A stretch of DNA of 28,204 bases. It comes from a phage. Both the position numbers and the translations under genes were made by a program. The stretch lies in NCBI GenBank assembly GCA_021454005.1, contig GCA_021454005.1_3939.2. The stretch is one strand, 5' to 3'. This document shows, piece by piece, positions 15,751 through 20,014 of this stretch (position 1 is the stretch's first letter; every line of letters begins with the position of its first letter). The notes below the pieces were generated by a model. The model did not search any database and had not been told where the DNA came from. It saw nothing but the letters and a program-made list of their open reading frames with translations.

Positions 15751-16122
15751 ATGAAAAACAGAACAAACAAAGGCCAGTTTAAAAAAGGCCAGTCTGGAAA
15801 CCCATCTGGAAGACCAAAAGGCTCTCGTAACAAAAGCTCACTTGTAAAAGCTCAACTGACCATTGATAATTCTGCTGAGTTTGCTGCAAAGTTGTTTGAG
15901 GCGGTTGTTACAAGGGATGCTGCTAAGCTTGCAGAGTTCGGTTTGACGACTGACGATGTAAACCTGAAGTCGATGATGGAGGCTGGTAAAACCATCATGA
16001 CTCACTCAGCAGGTGAGATGAAAGCGATTGCAGCAGACACTAAGAAGACCCCTGATAATGGTGGTCAGTCTCAGACAGATAACAAACCAACGTTCTCTGC
16101 TGTAGCGACTCTCAAAAAATAA
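15751..16122 (+). CDS. hypothetical protein with basic N-terminal motif KKGQSGNPSGRPKG (DUF5681-like, from memory)
   Basis: AAGAGG 8 nt upstream of ATG; N-terminus GQFKKGQSGNPSGRPKGSRNK. Confidence 0.6.
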   Translation: MKNRTNKGQFKKGQSGNPSGRPKGSRNKSSLVKAQLTIDNSAEFAAKLFEAVVTRDAAKLAEFGLTTDDVNLKSMMEAGKTIMTHSAGEMKAIAADTKKTPDNGGQSQTDNKPTFSAVATLKK

Positions 16123-16203: not shown

Positions 16204-17619
16204 ATGAGCGAATTATTTAAACATGCGCACCTTCATGCAGGTCGAACTGAAAATGGTGCTGTAAACCATACTTCATCAATGTCTGCTCTTGTAGACTTTT
16301 ACAAAGCTGCTGGTTCAAGCCGTAGCAACGTAGAAATCTTACCAGACCTGTTCTACAAAGCTTTGCGTGAGGATGTTGATGTTGCAGTTCGTATTTTGCT
16401 TCATATGCGAGATGTACGAGAAGGTATGGGTGAGCGTAAAGCCTTCAGAACTGTTTTACTTCAAGCGATTGAAGACAAAGTTTTAGAGCCTACGCAGGTT
16501 CTTCGCATTATGGATAAGATTGCAGAACTTGGTCGTTTTGATGACTTCAAAATCTTCGTAGGTACTCGTTTCGAGACAGATGCCTTCAAACATCTAGAAG
16601 CAGCATTACTAGACCCTGCAACAGCAGGTTTGGCGGCTAAGTGGTTACCACGAGTCAAACCACGTCATAAGCAGTTTGTAAAACGTTTCTGCAAGTTTGC
16701 CAACTTGAGTGAGAAAGAGTACCGCACACTGTTGTCTGCACTATCTGATACAGTTGAGCAAAAAATCTCTGCTAATGAGTTTGGTAAGATTGACTACAGT
16801 AAGATTCCTTCACTTGCTGCTGCACGTTACCAAAAACTGTTTAACCGCAAAGATGGAGAACGCTACAAAGCTTACATCGAGTCCTTATCAAAGGGTGAGG
16901 CTAAGATTAATGCTGGTGCTGTTTACCCATACGATGTAATTAAATCTGTTAAGCATGGTAATGCAGATGTTGCTAATGAGCAGTGGAAAGCACTACCAAA
17001 CTGGATGGCAGAGGGTGAAAACATCTTGTGTATGTCTGATGTTTCAAGCTCAATGTCTTGGGTGAATTTTGGTTCAATTACTGCTCTTGATATTGGTGTT
17101 TCACTTGCATTGTATGTAGCAGAACGTAATACAGGTTGCTTTAAGAATGAGTTGATGGTTTATTCAACAAACCCTCACTTCATCGAACTGAGTGGTGATT
17201 TACGAAACCGTCATCGTCAGGTGATGCGACACGTTGAATATGGCTCAACTAACTTACAAGCAGCTTTTGACCGTATTCTTGAAACAGGTAAAAGAAACAA
17301 CTTGACTCAGAAAGATATGCCAAGTAAGCTTATCATCTTCTCCGATATGGAGTTCAATCAGGTTGATGGAGCTAACGGTCGTACAAACTTTGAAGCAATT
17401 CGTAGTAAGTACAAAAAAGCTGGATACGAAATGCCTCAACTGGTATTCTGGTACTTAGCAAACCGTAATGGTACTTGCGAAGTATCTGTTAAGGATAACG
17501 GTGTGGCAATGGTATCTGGTTTTTCTCCAGCTACTTTAAAAGCTCTGCTTGGTGGTGAGAAGTTTGACCCAATCAGCGTAATGCTCAAAGCAGTAATGAT
17601 TGACCGTTATATCTGGTAA
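16204..17619 (+). CDS. vWA-domain protein (MIDAS motif D-x-S-x-S) with N-terminal region resembling DUF2828/TROVE-like proteins
   Basis: 471-aa ORF; DVSSSMS (MIDAS-like) at about residue 280 and downstream IIFSDMEF; N-terminal TENGA...SALVDFY...R..DVREGMGER pattern recalled from DUF2828-type proteins. Confidence 0.7.
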   Translation: MSELFKHAHLHAGRTENGAVNHTSSMSALVDFYKAAGSSRSNVEILPDLFYKALREDVDVAVRILLHMRDVREGMGERKAFRTVLLQAIEDKVLEPTQVLRIMDKIAELGRFDDFKIFVGTRFETDAFKHLEAALLDPATAGLAAKWLPRVKPRHKQFVKRFCKFANLSEKEYRTLLSALSDTVEQKISANEFGKIDYSKIPSLAAARYQKLFNRKDGERYKAYIESLSKGEAKINAGAVYPYDVIKSVKHGNADVANEQWKALPNWMAEGENILCMSDVSSSMSWVNFGSITALDIGVSLALYVAERNTGCFKNELMVYSTNPHFIELSGDLRNRHRQVMRHVEYGSTNLQAAFDRILETGKRNNLTQKDMPSKLIIFSDMEFNQVDGANGRTNFEAIRSKYKKAGYEMPQLVFWYLANRNGTCEVSVKDNGVAMVSGFSPATLKALLGGEKFDPISVMLKAVMIDRYIW

Positions 17620-17637: not shown

Positions 17638-17666
17638 TTGACAATGTGTTTGATACCCTTTAATAT
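17638..17666 (+). promoter_or_regulatory. strong sigma70-like promoter TTGACA-N17-TAATAT flanked by inverted repeat AAGGGTAT/ATACCCTT
   Basis: hexamers at 17638-17643 and 17661-17666. Confidence 0.65.
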
Positions 17667-17728
17667 GTTCTACATAGAAACGAAACGAGAGCTTTTCTAA
17701 GATACTGAAAAATATTTTAAAAAAGTTC

Positions 17729-17758
17729 TTGACAACCACTAAAAAATAATGTTAAAGT
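17729..17758 (+). promoter_or_regulatory. promoter TTGACA-N18-TAAAGT with inverted repeat AACCACT/AGTGGTT, 27 nt upstream of the first tRNA
   Basis: hexamers at 17729-17734 and 17753-17758. Confidence 0.55.
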
Positions 17759-17953: not shown

Positions 17954-18025
17954 CAGAAGACCAATTACAGCAAGCTTAATCTACTCATCTGACACGAAAT
18001 CGGACAAAGAAGATATTTGGTCTGG
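17954..18025 (+). ncRNA. spacer element copy 1: CAGAAGACCAA..TACAGCAAG...TTGGTCTGG (terminal 7-bp stem AGACCAA/TTGGTCT)
   Basis: conserved ends and covarying stem shared with copies at 18120, 18507, 18594. Confidence 0.5.
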
Positions 18026-18119: not shown

Positions 18120-18179
18120 CAGAAGACCGTATTCAGCAACAAAATACTTTTTGCGGATAAAAGAAAAAACACGGTCTGG
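18120..18179 (+). ncRNA. spacer element copy 2: CAGAAGACCGT..TTCAGCAAC...ACGGTCTGG (stem AGACCGT/ACGGTCT)
   Basis: same architecture as copy 1 with a compensatory change in the stem. Confidence 0.5.
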
Positions 18180-18445: not shown

Positions 18446-18506
18446 ATTTTGAGAGGGCTATTTAGCCCCTCCCTTAAAGAGTTCTTACGAGTATTCTTTA
18501 AAGGAG

Positions 18507-18580
18507 CAGAAGACCAAATACAGCAAGAATGTATGAAATTTCAAGCCAATTTAATTTTGAAAATTTAAAACTTGGTCTGG
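18507..18580 (+). ncRNA. spacer element copy 3: CAGAAGACCAA..TACAGCAAG...TTGGTCTGG
   Basis: same architecture; stem AGACCAA/TTGGTCT. Confidence 0.5.
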
Positions 18581-18593
18581 CTCAACAAATTTA

Positions 18594-18725
18594 CAGAAGA
18601 CCGTTTACAGCAAAACTTAAACAATCTATTTCTCCGGTAAAGAAAAGGCGAAGGTTCGATTCCTTCACTCGGCAGATGTCGAGTTGGTGTAATGGTAGCA
18701 CTTAAGATGATAAACAACGGTCTGG
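18594..18725 (+). ncRNA. spacer element copy 4 (long form) with terminal stem AGACCGTT/AACGGTCT, containing tRNA-half-like hairpins
   Basis: CAGAAGACCGTTTACAGCAAA at the 5' end and AACGGTCTGG at the 3' end; interior carries a T-arm-like hairpin, an acceptor-like hairpin and a D-arm-like hairpin. Confidence 0.45.
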
Positions 18726-18726
18726 T

Positions 18727-18870
18727 AATTATCTTTGTAGATAAGTTATTAAGCTTACATGTGAGTATGCGACCACAAAGGGTGAAAGGGTAAATTCTAG
18801 ATTTAAACCCAAAAAGGCACATCGCTACAGACCTTAAGCAAGTCTGGGTAGCTTATCTACAAAGATAATT
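18727..18870. repeat. 19-bp perfect inverted repeat (AATTATCTTTGTAGATAAG / CTTATCTACAAAGATAATT) flanking 106 nt
   Basis: arms at 18727-18745 and 18852-18870; could be a long-stem RNA or a miniature inverted-repeat element. Confidence 0.6.
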
Positions 18871-19032: not shown

Positions 19033-19108
19033 GCTGGTATAGTTAAGAAGGTTATAACACTCCCCTGATAAGGGAACATCGGTGGTTCGATTCCACCTAC
19101 CAGTACCA
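19033..19108 (+). tRNA. tRNA-Ile (anticodon GAT)
   Basis: acceptor GCTGGTA/TACCAGT, D stem GTTA/TAAC, loop CTGATAA, T arm GGTGG-TTCGATT-CCACC, CCA encoded. Confidence 0.7.
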
Positions 19109-19123
19109 ATTTCAATAAAGTTG

Positions 19124-19152
19124 TTGACATTGAGATGTGACTACTTTATAGT
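19124..19152 (+). promoter_or_regulatory. sigma70-like promoter TTGACA-N17-TATAGT inside the tRNA array
   Basis: hexamers at 19124-19129 and 19147-19152; about 200 nt of unassigned sequence follows before the next tRNA. Confidence 0.6.
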
Positions 19153-19355
19153 AACCTTAGTTTTCGTTGCGTAGCGTCTATTTTGCAAATTTAAAATAAA
19201 TGCAAACGACAATGTTTTTCTGGCAGTAGCTTGATAGGCTAAACACCAGTGAGGTCTTCCAATCCCTCATCAAAGAATTTGGCGTACTAGCCCACGGTAT
19301 GATTAATAAGGTGGGCATCTTTAAGGGCTTTCTAAGAGAGTCTTTAAAGATTAAT

Positions 19356-19490: not shown

Positions 19491-19574
19491 TATCTCATGT
19501 TTTCCAGAACATGTAAATAATCTGAGAAGGGGCTTTACAGTGTTGAGATAATACGGTAAGCTTCGAATTACAGT

Positions 19575-19657
19575 ATGGGACGATGTTAAGACTCTAAGGC
19601 ATGAGCAACGGCCTCCAAAACCGTTTCAAAGGGGTTCAACTCCTCCGTCCCATGCCA
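19575..19657 (+). tRNA. tRNA-Trp (anticodon CCA), atypical (about 7 extra nt between acceptor stem and D arm)
   Basis: acceptor ATGGGAC/GTCCCAT (7 of 7), anticodon stem ACGGC/ACCGT with loop CTCCAAA, T arm AGGGG-TTCAACT-CCTCC, CCA encoded; D region does not fold canonically by hand. Confidence 0.5.
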
Positions 19658-19914: not shown

Positions 19915-19935
19915 AGACCTATTTAGGTCTTTTTA
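19915..19935 (+). terminator. intrinsic terminator AGACCT-ATTT-AGGTCT-TTTTT within the tRNA array
   Basis: perfect 6-bp inverted repeat plus T5. Confidence 0.6.
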
Positions 19936-20014
19936 GAGGGCTTCTAAGGTTATTAGTCGCTTGTTGTGGAACCTTGTTGCTCAGGTTCTTAGAAGTTCTC
20001 TAAAAAGATTTAAT

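What the first reader, a model, noticed from the sequence alone, without database searches (positions are those of the whole stretch)
18640..18870. tRNA-half-like hairpins in permuted order, followed by a 19-bp inverted-repeat element
At 18649-18676 there is a canonical T arm (GAAGG-TTCGATT-CCTTC) followed by a 7-nt acceptor 3' strand ACTCGGC and a discriminator A. Three nt later (18680-18705) comes a perfectly complementary acceptor 5' strand GTCGAGT followed by a D arm (TG-GTGT-AATGGTA-GCAC). The 3' half of a tRNA therefore lies upstream of the 5' half with a 7 of 7 acceptor match, but no anticodon arm can be formed from adjacent sequence. Options are a circularly permuted or split tRNA-like RNA, a rearranged tRNA pseudogene, or a three-hairpin structured RNA that is part of spacer element copy 4. 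Directly downstream, a perfect 19-bp inverted repeat (18727-18745 and 18852-18870) encloses 106 nt and abuts tRNA-Lys(TTT).
Basis: seen in the sequence. Interest (0 to 1): 0.65.

Follow-up and report, generated by a model that had tools for sequence, protein, structure and literature searches.

The report
Phage Y RNA with tRNA-like domain
The "scrambled tRNA" is the tRNA-mimicking core of a small non-coding Y RNA, one of four encoded just after a Ro60-like RNA-binding protein gene in a FelixO1-type phage; this points to the unidentified RNA partners of a phage protein already shown to counter a bacterial defence.

Summary
Rejoining 18678-18702 with 18629-18674 gives a full cloverleaf that ARAGORN calls tRNA-Thr(GGT).

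It is not a broken tRNA gene. The order V hairpin, T arm, closed acceptor hairpin, D arm, enclosed by a 5'/3' helix, is the published topology of YrlA-type bacterial Y RNAs. The acceptor hairpin shows compensatory changes across Felixounavirus, Mooglevirus and Suspvirus, while the "anticodon" drifts.

In 75 diverse phage contigs carrying DUF2828 genes, 75 such modules lie within 500 nt on the gene strand against 2 on the other strand. A covariance model built only from non-Ounavirinae examples finds the window element at 55.5 bits; the best tRNA junction scores 28.3.

The 19-bp inverted repeat is a conserved long RNA hairpin, not a mobile element.

Verdict: a new variant of a known kind. RNA expression, protein binding and function are inferred, not shown.

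The parts
16204..17619 (+). Gene for a 471-aa Ro60-like protein (Pfam DUF2828 + DUF7788; PHROG 850 'RNA-binding protein'). It is the presumed protein partner of the RNAs below.
   Evidence: - Pfam and PHROG hits.
- AlphaFold2 model, pLDDT 88.7.
- Foldseek: the top 11 PDB hits are all Ro60/TROVE.
- MIDAS residues D279, S281, S283, T349 and D381 are invariant.
- 98% identical to Bas63 gp130.
17638..17758 (+). Two sigma-70-like promoter matches (17638-17666 and 17729-17758) upstream of the tRNA and Y-RNA cluster.
   Evidence: These are consensus matches only. No terminator-like site was found on the + strand between 17760 and 19100.
17954..18025 (+). Module M1, a short Y-like RNA between tRNA-Glu and tRNA-Met: CAGAAGACCAA-UUACAGCAA ... 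UUGGUCUGG.
   Evidence: Closing helix AGACCAA/TTGGTCT.
18120..18179 (+). Module M2, a short Y-like RNA between tRNA-Met and tRNA-Asn: CAGAAGACCGU-AUUCAGCAA ... ACGGUCUGG.
   Evidence: Closing helix AGACCGT/ACGGTCT, which covaries with M1 and M3 (AA/TT against GT/AC).
18507..18580 (+). Module M3, a short Y-like RNA with an internal hairpin (UUUCAAG...UUUGAAA).
18594..18725 (+). Module M4, the YrlA-like Y RNA that contains the reported element.
   Evidence: - The minimum-free-energy fold of 18590-18728 gives the closing helix plus V, T, AS and D hairpins.
- RNAalifold gives the same structure.
- Identical in Bas63.
18598..18605 (+). Closing helix, 5' strand AGACCGUU.
   Evidence: - Pairs with 18716-18723.
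- Completely different but complementary sequences in other DUF2828 loci and in Yersinia phage P778.
18606..18613 (+). Conserved single-stranded motif UACAGCAA (family consensus U-W-Y-CAGCAA) immediately 3' of the helix strand. Proposed protein-recognition motif.
   Evidence: Present in all four modules (family D8). Also present in the modules next to DUF2828 genes in unrelated phages. Its role is inferred.
18629..18645 (+). V hairpin (looks like an anticodon arm): UUUCU-CCGGUAA-AGAAA.
   Evidence: The loop varies among relatives (CCGGTAA, CGGTAA, CTGGTAA, CTCAAAA, CTATGAA) and the hairpin is degenerate in Moogle.
18650..18666 (+). T arm GAAGG-UUCGAUU-CCUUC.
   Evidence: Invariant across the Ounavirinae sampled. 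The stem covaries across the wider family.
18667..18684 (+). Closed acceptor-stem hairpin (AS): ACUCGGC-AGAU-GUCGAGU. The predicted RNase P site lies between U18677 and G18678.
   Evidence: - Three pairs have compensatory changes within the Ounavirinae.
- 7 of 7 pairs covary in the wider family.
- RNase P cleavage is inferred from the M. smegmatis YrlA precedent.
18687..18701 (+). D arm GUGU-AAUGGUA-GCAC, preceded by the U8-like U18685.
   Evidence: Invariant across the Ounavirinae apart from one loop base.
18716..18723 (+). Closing helix, 3' strand AACGGUCU, followed by GG.
18727..18870 (+). The stem is about 25 bp, encloses a variable 100-nt interior and ends 4 nt before tRNA-Lys.
   Evidence: - Repeat arms: (I2).
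- z = -5.96.
- Compensatory changes in the stem at alignment columns 321/464, 329/456 and 336/449.
- Its role as a processing stem is inferred.

Best explanation
**What it is.** The element is the tRNA-like domain of a phage-encoded Y RNA of the YrlA type (module M4, 18594-18725, + strand). M4 is the largest of four tandem Y-like modules (M1-M4). All four are transcribed with the tRNA cluster directly downstream of a Ro60-like protein gene (16204-17619).

**Proposed working, step by step.**
1. The modules are released from the polycistronic tRNA transcript by the host tRNA-processing enzymes that cut the flanking tRNAs, and possibly by cleavage of the long 18727-18870 stem. This step is inferred.
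2. Each module folds into a stem formed by its 5' strand (AGACCnn) and 3' strand (nnGGUCU), with the conserved single-stranded UWCAGCAA beside it. The structure is shown by covariation. That this is the docking site for the Ro60-like ring protein is inferred from genomic linkage.
3. In M4 the interior folds like a tRNA L-shape whose acceptor end is closed by a loop. It presents a tRNA elbow (T-loop/D-loop) that can recruit or distract a tRNA-recognising factor. The fold is inferred from conserved tRNA tertiary positions and from the solved Salmonella YrlA structure. The partner is unknown.
4. The acceptor hairpin has 7 bp stacked on a 5-bp T stem, so RNase P may cut 5' of G18678, as it does in M. 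smegmatis YrlA. This would leave a two-piece tRNA mimic. Moogle-type relatives even encode G-CCA at that 3' end. This step is inferred.

**Likely biological role.** The resulting RNP probably remodels host RNA metabolism or counters defence during infection. The near-identical Bas63 protein gp130 is an experimentally shown counter of the ppl defence system.
For: **Topology.**
- V hairpin, T arm, closed acceptor hairpin (AS) and D arm lie inside a 5'/3' helix. This is the published YrlA layout (PMC4201824; 10.1101/312249).
- tRNA-core positions are kept: U8, A14, G18 G19, A21 and the T loop UUCGAUU. The un-permuted sequence is called a tRNA by ARAGORN.

**Selection on the RNA structure.**
- AS pairs change in a compensatory way across three genera: ACTCGGC/GTCGAGT, ACACGTT/GGCGTGT and ACCCTTC/GAAGGGT.
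- The G-U pairs make the structure specific to the + strand.
- In ten unrelated phage examples 98% of cells are paired and 13 of 16 pairs have double changes. 0 of 500 shuffles reach the observed value on four of the five measures, and 1 of 500 on the count of pairs with a change on both sides.

**Protein partner.**
- The upstream DUF2828 protein has the Ro60 fold.
- PhageMaP independently noted that Bas63 gp130 (98% identical) is Ro60-like and lies upstream of the tRNAs (PMC11482910).

**Linkage across diverse phages.**
- In 75 diverse DUF2828 loci, modules with a 6-bp closing helix plus CAGCA number 75 within 500 nt on the gene strand, against 2 on the opposite strand. They occur in 46 of the 75 loci.
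- Nine of the 14 module-bearing loci checked have no tRNA called within 6 kb.
- T-AS-D cores with GNRA or UUCG-capped AS sit inside such modules.

**Family recognition.**
- Rfam YrlA (RF02553) hits several of these at E 7e-6 to 4e-5, below its gathering score.
- Model R2, built without any Ounavirinae sequence, finds 18646-18705 at 55.5 bits, E 1.5e-12.

**Paralogy within the window.** The four modules covary in the closing helix, AA/TT against GT/AC.
Against: - There is no expression, processing or binding data for these RNAs. Everything after the structure is inferred.
- Rfam YrlA gives no hit in the window even at E up to 5-10.
- The YrlA motif GNCGAAN0-1G is absent from the 5' region and UWCAGCAA stands in its place.
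- The closing helix is separated from the tRNA-like core by 23 and 14 unpaired nucleotides, looser than in Salmonella YrlA.
- The protein is Ro60-like by fold only, with 11-16% identity. Neither the sequence nor a profile of it hits Ro60 in the PDB, and Pfam TROVE is not matched.
- In PhageMaP, gp130 alone rescued T7 on the ppl strain without any Bas63 RNA. At least that activity therefore does not need the phage Y RNAs.
- Only a minority of DUF2828 loci have a clear T-AS-D core: about 10 of 77 loci have a non-junction hit at E <= 0.05. None was found near the gene in Vibrio phage phi-pp2.
Confidence: 0.78

Rival explanations
1. It is a tRNA mimic that works independently of the Ro60-like protein. 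It could be a decoy or sponge for tRNA-targeting defence nucleases or tRNA-binding host factors. It could also be a processing 'punctuation' element recognised by RNase P within the tRNA operon.
For: - The element sits in a tRNA operon and keeps the RNase P determinants, a 7-bp AS stacked on a 5-bp T stem.
- Some relatives encode R-CCA in the AS loop.
- gp130 counters ppl without phage RNAs.
- Phage tRNAs are known counters of anticodon nucleases (PMC10264068, listed; not read).
Against: - The tRNA-like core is always embedded in the closing-helix/CAGCAA module. That module tracks DUF2828 genes even where no tRNA genes exist.
- The anticodon-like loop, the usual nuclease target, is the least conserved part.
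- This rival is compatible with the main explanation as the effector function of the RNP.
Confidence: 0.12
2. It is a functional permuted or split tRNA-Thr(GGU). It would be cut by RNase P, given a CCA end, aminoacylated as a two-piece tRNA and used in translation.
For: - The un-permuted sequence is a complete cloverleaf called tRNA-Thr(GGT).
- No other Thr(GGT) tRNA is in the cluster.
- Sf17-type relatives have a canonical CUGGUAA loop.
- Moogle encodes G-CCA.
- M. smegmatis YrlA does get a CCA end.
Against: - The 'anticodon' differs among close relatives: GGT, CAA, ATG, a 6-nt loop, or none in Moogle.
- The window has C33 instead of U33 and no encoded CCA, whereas the T-arm-to-3'-end alignments of the cluster's tRNAs end in an encoded CCA.
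- AS-less versions exist in other phages.
- The break at position 26/27 is enclosed in a larger conserved helix that a tRNA would not need.
Confidence: 0.04
3. It is a decaying remnant of two tandem tRNA genes, the 3' part of one and the 5' part of the next, with no function.
For: Tandem duplication followed by loss of the outer parts is the standard route to permuted genes. Some public records annotate a 131-nt 'tRNA-Thr_GGT' or pseudo-tRNAs here.
Against: - Compensatory changes hold the 3' strand of the 'first' gene paired to the 5' strand of the 'second'.
- T and D arms are invariant across genera while neighbouring spacer positions change.
- The same design with engineered-looking tetraloops recurs in unrelated phages.
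- The region matches 253 phage records, 213 of them over at least 80% of its length, and the permuted order is kept in all seven diverged genomes aligned.
Confidence: 0.02
4. For the inverted repeat only: the 18727-18870 segment is a miniature inverted-repeat mobile element inserted next to tRNA-Lys.
For: The terminal arms are perfect over 19 bp and enclose about 100 nt. The interior differs strongly between the window type and the pSJ21/Moogle type.
Against: - It occupies the same position in all genera sampled.
- Arm substitutions are compensatory.
- There is no second copy in the window.
- A second, unrelated long hairpin (19923-20013) sits in the same position relative to the next tRNA run. 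This points to an RNA-level role such as a processing stem.
Confidence: 0.04

Closest known systems
YrlA (Y RNA-like A; Rfam RF02553) of Salmonella Typhimurium, Mycobacterium smegmatis and mycobacteriophages
   Same: - Order of elements: 5' strand, V, T arm, closed acceptor hairpin, UR dinucleotide, D arm, 3' strand.
- Conserved T and D arms, with variable AS and V.
- Encoded on the same strand within a few kb of a Ro60-type protein gene.
- A 7-bp AS, as in M. smegmatis YrlA, which RNase P cleaves and which then receives CCA.
   Different: - No GNCGAAN0-1G motif. UWCAGCAA stands next to the closing helix instead.
- No Rfam hit in the window, and sub-threshold hits only in relatives.
- The partner protein is DUF2828, Ro60-like by fold but not a sequence-detectable TROVE protein.
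- Four modules are interleaved with tRNA genes.
- Long unpaired linkers separate the closing helix from the tRNA-like core.
Thermus phage phiLo Ro60 with Yrl1/Yrl2 (PMC12135203)
   Different: The phiLo Yrls were picked by a CGAA motif in an internal bulge and are described as stem-bulge-stem RNAs. In that study they bind the protein and host PNPase in vitro. Nothing comparable has been tested for the FelixO1-type RNAs.
Deinococcus radiodurans Yrn1
   Same: It is a Y RNA with tRNA-derived T-arm features that tethers the Ro60 orthologue Rsr to an effector, PNPase.
   Different: In Yrn1 the T and D parts are in the opposite orientation, with an anticodon-arm-like hairpin between them. A few DUF2828-linked modules (L085, L116) look like this, but the window's M4 does not.
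Circularly permuted tRNA genes of Cyanidioschyzon merolae and some archaea (from my own knowledge, not checked here)
   Same: The 3' half of the tRNA is encoded upstream of the 5' half, and the two are joined through the acceptor stem.
   Different: Those genes yield normal decoding tRNAs through a circular intermediate made by the splicing endonuclease. Here there is no conserved anticodon, the break is enclosed by an extra helix, and the host has no such pathway.
Two-piece (permuted) tmRNA
   Same: The T arm and acceptor 3' strand are encoded before the acceptor 5' strand.
   Different: ARAGORN finds no tmRNA, no Rfam tmRNA_permuted hit covers this locus, and there is no conserved tag reading frame.

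Membership tests
YrlA-type Y RNA (Chen et al. 2014; Rfam RF02553) | Conserved T stem-loop with a tRNA-type T loop | tested here: met
   GAAGG-UUCGAUU-CCUUC at 18650-18666. Invariant in the Ounavirinae sampled.
YrlA-type Y RNA (Chen et al. 2014; Rfam RF02553) | Conserved D stem-loop with GG, placed 3' of the T arm | tested here: met
   GUGU-AAUGGUA-GCAC at 18687-18701.
YrlA-type Y RNA (Chen et al. 2014; Rfam RF02553) | [quoted passage not shown] | tested here: met
   18667-18684. Three covarying pairs within the Ounavirinae and 7 of 7 in the wider set.
YrlA-type Y RNA (Chen et al. 2014; Rfam RF02553) | Less-conserved V stem-loop upstream of T | tested here: met
   18629-18645. Variable loop, degenerate in Moogle. 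CUAU at 18626-18629 fits the YUAY that begins V in most YrlA RNAs (sequence; feature).
YrlA-type Y RNA (Chen et al. 2014; Rfam RF02553) | Stem formed by the 5' and 3' regions enclosing the tRNA-like domain | tested here: met
   AGACCGUU/AACGGUCU. Different but complementary sequences in P778 and other loci.
YrlA-type Y RNA (Chen et al. 2014; Rfam RF02553) | GNCGAAN0-1G motif near the 5' end (putative Rsr contact) | tested here: not met
   Absent from the 5' region of M1-M4. The only GGCGAAG (18647-18653) overlaps the V/T junction. UWCAGCAA occupies the equivalent place.
YrlA-type Y RNA (Chen et al. 2014; Rfam RF02553) | Reaches the Rfam RF02553 gathering score (69 bits) | tested here: not met
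   No YrlA hit in the window at E <= 5-10. Related DUF2828-linked elements score 25-42 bits.
YrlA-type Y RNA (Chen et al. 2014; Rfam RF02553) | Encoded within about 4 kb of a Ro60 orthologue, on the same strand | tested here: met
   M4 starts 975 nt downstream of the Ro60-fold gene 16204-17619, on the same strand. Caveat: the protein is Ro60-like by fold, not by Pfam TROVE.
YrlA-type Y RNA (Chen et al. 2014; Rfam RF02553) | Bound by the Ro60 protein; carries pseudouridine-55 and dihydrouridine | not testable with these tools
   Needs RIP or EMSA, and CMC or alkali primer extension.
Ro60 / TROVE protein family (for the upstream gene) | HEAT-repeat ring plus C-terminal vWA domain with a MIDAS motif | tested here: met
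Ro60 / TROVE protein family (for the upstream gene) | Sequence-level match to TROVE (Pfam) or to solved Ro60 proteins | tested here: not met
   Pfam gives DUF2828 + DUF7788 only. phmmer and profile searches of PDB sequences give no Ro60 hit.
Permuted tRNA gene producing a decoding tRNA | Conserved 7-nt anticodon loop with U33 and a fixed anticodon | tested here: not met
   C33 in the window. Loops of 6 or 7 nt, with anticodons GGT, CAA, ATG or none among relatives.
Permuted tRNA gene producing a decoding tRNA | 3' half upstream of the 5' half, with a complementary acceptor | tested here: met
Two-piece (permuted) tmRNA | Detected as tmRNA, with a tag reading frame downstream of the acceptor 5' strand | tested here: not met
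   ARAGORN finds none. The Rfam tmRNA_permuted weak hit lies elsewhere, at 19050-19234. The ORF through the region is broken by indels in relatives.

The most novel reading that the evidence does not exclude
DUF2828 proteins and their CAGCAA-motif RNAs could form a large, phage-specific branch of the Ro60/Y RNA system with its own recognition code. One search scored only the 8000 best candidates and found 2838 homologues among them, mostly from viral metagenomes. The tRNA-like members would be cleavable by RNase P into two-piece, CCA-ended tRNA mimics. The resulting RNP would be a general anti-defence or host-takeover device in virulent phages of enterobacteria, vibrios and many uncultured hosts. 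This would explain how Bas63 gp130 counters ppl.
Probability: 0.3. Interest if true: 0.8.

Novelty: new variant of a known kind. Interest (0 to 1): 0.62.

Why it matters
**What was already known.**
- Y RNAs and Ro60 are conserved from bacteria to humans.
- The role of the tRNA-like domain of bacterial YrlA RNAs, and its binding partner, remain unknown.
- A 2024 preprint showed that the Ro60-like protein of the Felixounavirus Bas63 counters a bacterial defence. It could only guess that "some tRNA genes" might be its Y RNAs.

**What this analysis adds.**
- The likely Y RNAs are not the annotated tRNAs. They are four unannotated modules in the inter-tRNA spacers, partly hidden under spurious ORF annotations.
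- They define a recognisable motif and structure shared by DUF2828 loci in many phages.

**Why that is useful.** It offers a genetically tractable E. coli/Salmonella phage system for asking three questions: what Ro60 and Y RNA complexes do, what binds the tRNA elbow mimic, and whether RNase P cleavage and a CCA end matter. It also corrects the annotation of FelixO1-type therapeutic and typing phages.

Tried and rejected
**Searches that found nothing at the locus.**
- ARAGORN on the native sequence finds nothing here.
- Rfam at its gathering score finds only the ordinary tRNAs. At permissive E-values it gives a partial tRNA hit (22 bits, 18617-18667) and no YrlA.

**Coding reading, rejected.**
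- A 58-aa + strand ORF (18529-18705) and an 85-aa - strand ORF (18565-18822) cross the element. Public records annotate similar CDSs.
- The start codon is not conserved.
- 1-, 2- and 4-nt indels occur among close relatives inside highly conserved sequence.

**Permuted tmRNA, rejected.** ARAGORN and Rfam find none at the locus, and there is no tag frame.

**Mobile-element reading of the inverted repeat, rejected.** The repeat is syntenic, its arms covary, and it is single-copy in the window.

**Sequence-level link of the protein to Ro60.** The protein sequence and an alignment profile both failed against PDB sequences. Only fold comparison worked.

**Method problems and gaps.**
- MAFFT alignments of whole modules from diverse phages were structurally inconsistent. 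I therefore seeded a core model from five consistently aligned sequences and re-aligned with Infernal.
- My generic closing-helix plus CAGCA finder has appreciable background genome-wide: about 3 hits per window in shuffles and 8 stray hits in the real window. It is informative only through the near-gene strand asymmetry and the clustering.
- The supplementary tables of Chen et al. 2014 are not held. I could not check whether FelixO1-type phages were among their 22 phages.
- No clear module or T-AS-D core was found next to the DUF2828 gene of Vibrio phage phi-pp2.
Full report
**1. Context**

The window is the tRNA region of a FelixO1-type phage (Ounavirinae, Felixounavirus). The Asp-to-Lys spacer matches 252-253 phage records. 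Most are 95-99% identical, and there are more distant copies in Mooglevirus and Suspvirus. ARAGORN finds 26 tRNA genes, all on the + strand, and nothing between tRNA-Asp (ends 18445) and tRNA-Lys (starts 18875).

**2. The observation**

- T arm 18650-18666
- acceptor 3' strand 18667-18673
- A18674 and GAT
- acceptor 5' strand 18678-18684
- UG
- D arm 18687-18701

One of the seven acceptor pairs is G-U.

UUUCU-CCGGUAA-AGAAA (18629-18645) lies 4 nt upstream of the T arm. Rfam's tRNA model aligns 18617-18667 to model positions 7-64 at 22 bits. Joining 18678-18702 to 18629-18674 gives a 71-nt sequence that ARAGORN calls tRNA-Thr(GGT) with a full cloverleaf.

The locus therefore holds a complete tRNA-like sequence, circularly permuted at position 26/27, with the acceptor end closed by a 4-nt loop. 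The inverted repeat is real and slightly longer than reported.

**3. Comparative evidence within the subfamily**

I aligned the spacer from seven diverged genomes.
- The T and D arms are invariant.
- The acceptor hairpin changes in a compensatory manner: ACTCGGC/GTCGAGT in the window, ACACGTT/GGCGTGT in the Sf17, SUSP2 and pEC-M719 types, and ACCCTTC/GAAGGGT in Moogle.
- On twelve distinct variants, three acceptor pairs have changes on both sides and 98.8% of cells are paired.
- The anticodon-like loop is not conserved. It reads CCGGUAA, CGGUAA (6 nt), CUGGUAA, CUCAAAA or CUAUGAA, and the hairpin is degenerate in Moogle.
- ARAGORN assigns the un-permuted relatives to Thr, Pro, Leu, His or nothing.

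No relative has an ordinary tRNA at this site. This rules out a recent rearrangement or a pseudogene, and it argues against a decoding role.

RNAalifold adds a helix that encloses the whole domain, AGACCGU (18598-18604) with ACGGUCU (18717-18723). The single-sequence minimum-free-energy fold of 18590-18728 reproduces the closing helix and the V, T, AS and D hairpins.

**4. Four paralogous modules**

The enclosing helix belongs to a repeated unit:
- M1, 17954-18025
- M2, 18120-18179
- M3, 18507-18580
- M4, 18594-18725

Each starts with CAGAAGACC + (AA or GU) + n + U(A/U)CAGCAA. Each ends with the complementary (UU or AC) + GGUCUGG. The AA/UU and GU/AC alternatives covary between modules. M1-M3 are 60-74 nt. 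M4 carries the tRNA-like insert.

All four copies are present in most related genomes sampled; 24 of the 34 loci searched show four motif matches. Yersinia phage P778, whose protein is 54% identical, has equivalent modules with different but complementary helices: GGACUGU...ACAGUCC, GGAUUC...GAAUCC and GGACUC...GAGUCC. Each is followed by the same U-W-U-CAGCAA motif.

**5. The neighbouring protein**

The gene directly upstream (16204-17619, + strand, 471 aa) is Pfam DUF2828 + DUF7788 and PHROG 850 'RNA-binding protein'.
- An AlphaFold2 model from a 34-sequence alignment has mean pLDDT 88.7.
- Foldseek against the PDB returns Ro60/TROVE structures as the top eleven hits (E about 1e-8, TM 0.5-0.65), followed by vWA domains.
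- The MIDAS residues are invariant in the family.
- Sequence searches do not see the relationship.

The protein is 98% identical to Bas63 gp130. The PhageMaP preprint reports gp130 as Ro60-like by structure and as a counter of the ppl defence. [quoted passage not shown] Bas63 carries an identical M4, annotated only as part of a minus-strand hypothetical CDS.

**6. Match to the known YrlA design**

Chen et al. 2014 describe YrlA RNAs as follows (PMC4201824):
- a 5' motif;
- an optional V stem-loop;
- a nearly invariant T stem-loop;
- a non-conserved acceptor-like stem-loop;
- a nearly invariant D stem-loop;
- pairing of the 5' and 3' regions;
- a location within 4 kb of a Ro60 orthologue, on the same strand.

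[quoted passage not shown] It also notes that M. smegmatis YrlA, with a 7-bp acceptor stem, is cut by RNase P and receives CCA (10.1101/312249). The window's M4 fits every structural point.

It departs in three ways. It lacks the GNCGAAN0-1G motif, with UWCAGCAA in its place. It does not score against Rfam RF02553. Its partner protein is a fold-level rather than sequence-level Ro60 homologue.

**7. Generality: linkage to DUF2828 genes in unrelated phages**

I fetched 80 viral contigs encoding DUF2828 relatives; 75 of them are 39-48% identical to the window protein.
- A strict descriptor scan for T arm, fully paired acceptor hairpin and D arm gave one hit in the window. In the 75 loci it gave seven strong hits with stems of 6 bp or more. 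Four are capped by GAAA, GUAA or UUCG tetraloops, and all lie on the gene strand.
- Each hit sits inside the same kind of module: a closing helix of unrelated but complementary sequence, then U-W-Y-CAGCAA, then the tRNA-like core, then the 3' strand followed by (U/A)G.
- I then searched for any 6-bp closing helix plus CAGCA. Within 500 nt of the gene there were 75 modules on the gene strand and 2 on the other. They occur in 46 of the 75 loci, often 30-35 nt after the stop codon or as arrays of three just upstream.
- Of the 14 module-bearing loci checked with ARAGORN, nine have no tRNA gene within 6 kb, so the linkage is to the protein gene and not to tRNA clusters.
- Rfam's YrlA model hits several of the tRNA-like cores below threshold but significantly: 41.9 bits with E 6.7e-6, and 39.1 bits with E 4.4e-5.
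- A covariance model seeded on five sequences recovered more examples.
- A second model, built only from ten non-Ounavirinae matches, finds the window element as its top hit at 55.5 bits, E 1.5e-12. All tRNA-tRNA junctions in the window score 28.3 bits or less.
- On those ten sequences 98% of cells pair. 13 of 16 pairs have double changes, including all seven acceptor pairs. 0 of 500 shuffles reach the observed value on four of the five measures, and 1 of 500 on the count of pairs with a change on both sides.

**8. Proposed mechanism**

Shown:
- the RNA secondary structure, by covariation;
- the tRNA-core sequence features;
- the Ro60 fold of the neighbouring protein;
- a strong, strand-specific genomic linkage between the protein family and the module family.

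Inferred:
- The modules are co-transcribed with the tRNAs. Promoter-like sites lie at 17638 and 17729, and no + strand terminator-like site was found before 19100.
- The enzymes that mature the flanking tRNAs would release the modules.
- The closing helix with the adjacent UWCAGCAA would be the docking site for the Ro60-like ring.
- M4's tRNA elbow would recruit or distract a tRNA-recognising factor, as proposed for YrlA.
- The 7-bp acceptor hairpin stacked on the T stem makes RNase P cleavage 5' of G18678 plausible. Moogle-type relatives, and elements in L098 and L068, encode R-CCA directly after the acceptor 3' strand. This would expose a tRNA-like 3' end after cleavage.

One caution: gp130 alone rescues T7 on the ppl strain. 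That activity therefore does not need the phage RNAs.

**9. The inverted repeat**

18727-18870 folds into a stem of about 25 bp around a 100-nt interior (z = -5.96).
- The stem is conserved, with compensatory substitutions, while the interior differs between lineages.
- It starts 2 nt after M4 and ends 4 nt before tRNA-Lys.
- A second, unrelated long hairpin (19923-20013, z = -6.07) ends 1 nt before tRNA-Leu.

I read both as RNA-level features, probably double-strand processing stems that separate segments of the precursor. They are not mobile elements. This reading is an inference.

**10. Novelty and verdict**

Y RNAs with tRNA-like domains next to Ro60 genes are known in bacteria and some phages: mycobacteriophages, CcrColossus, phage G and phiLo. 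For Felixounavirus only a speculation existed. A full-text search for DUF2828 found no paper linking it to Y RNAs.

New here:
- identification of the actual RNAs, four unannotated spacer modules of which one is YrlA-like;
- their distinct motif;
- their embedding in a tRNA operon;
- the generalisation to the large DUF2828 family.

I rate it a new variant of a known kind, with interest 0.62.

Noticed in passing
window 19574-19657 (+): An uncalled tRNA-Trp(CCA)-like sequence. It has a perfect 7-bp acceptor (ATGGGAC/GTCCCAT) followed by G-CCA, an anticodon loop CUCCAAA, a T arm AGGGG-UUCAACU-CCUCC and an aberrant D region. Trp is the only amino acid missing from the 26 tRNAs that ARAGORN calls. 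Rfam gives only a 23-bit tRNA-Sec hit.
   Followed up: partly
window 19923-20013 (+): A second long hairpin with 26-nt arms, 85% complementary, z = -6.07. It ends 1 nt before tRNA-Leu(TAG), mirroring the 18727-18870 hairpin before tRNA-Lys.
   Followed up: partly
window 18452-18506 (+): Two conserved hairpins directly after tRNA-Asp: GAGAGGGC...GCCCCUC and a hairpin of about 17 bp with one compensatory change. This stretch is almost invariant across three genera. Function unknown.
   Followed up: no
window 19050-19355 (+): Weak Rfam hits to tmRNA_permuted (19050-19234, 29.2 bits) and tmRNA (19166-19355, 15.2 bits), each at E 0.0017. A near-consensus sigma-70 promoter match lies at 19124-19152. 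The first hit begins inside tRNA-Ile, whose T arm may account for it (not checked), but this 247-nt tRNA-free gap is unexplained.
   Followed up: no
window 18529-18705 (+), 18565-18822 (-); Bas63 bas63_0137/0138; FelixO1 ORF94: ORFs and deposited 'hypothetical protein' CDSs overlie the Y-RNA modules and the long hairpin. Frame-breaking indels among close relatives, for example a 1-nt indel in the V loop, indicate these annotations are spurious.
   Followed up: partly
L085 5735-5832; L116 5756-5829 and 7418-7516; L071 5830-5874; L067 5879-5924: Other DUF2828-linked modules carry tRNA parts in different arrangements. Some have D arm, anticodon-like arm and T arm in the normal order, as in Deinococcus Yrn1. 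Others have T and D arms with no acceptor hairpin at all. This suggests that the tRNA elbow is the selected feature.
   Followed up: no
L035 (Yersinia phage P778) 9010-9150 and 9360-9390: A tRNA-like sequence with acceptor GCGGGUG/CACCUGC and an insert of about 70 nt before its T arm, plus an orphan T arm. Both lie in a 690-nt gap of that phage's tRNA cluster.
   Followed up: no
window 15751-16122 (+); L035 5558-5917: A DUF5681 gene immediately precedes the Ro60-like gene, both in the window and in the distant Yersinia phage. It may be a conserved third component.
   Followed up: no
L005/L016/L034 (Moogle type); L098 7563-7618; L068 7987-8052: These acceptor-hairpin loops encode a discriminator plus CCA directly after the 3' strand: G-CCA-AACA, G-CCA-AU and A-CCA-AAAUCU. 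The window's loop (AGAU) does not.
   Followed up: partly
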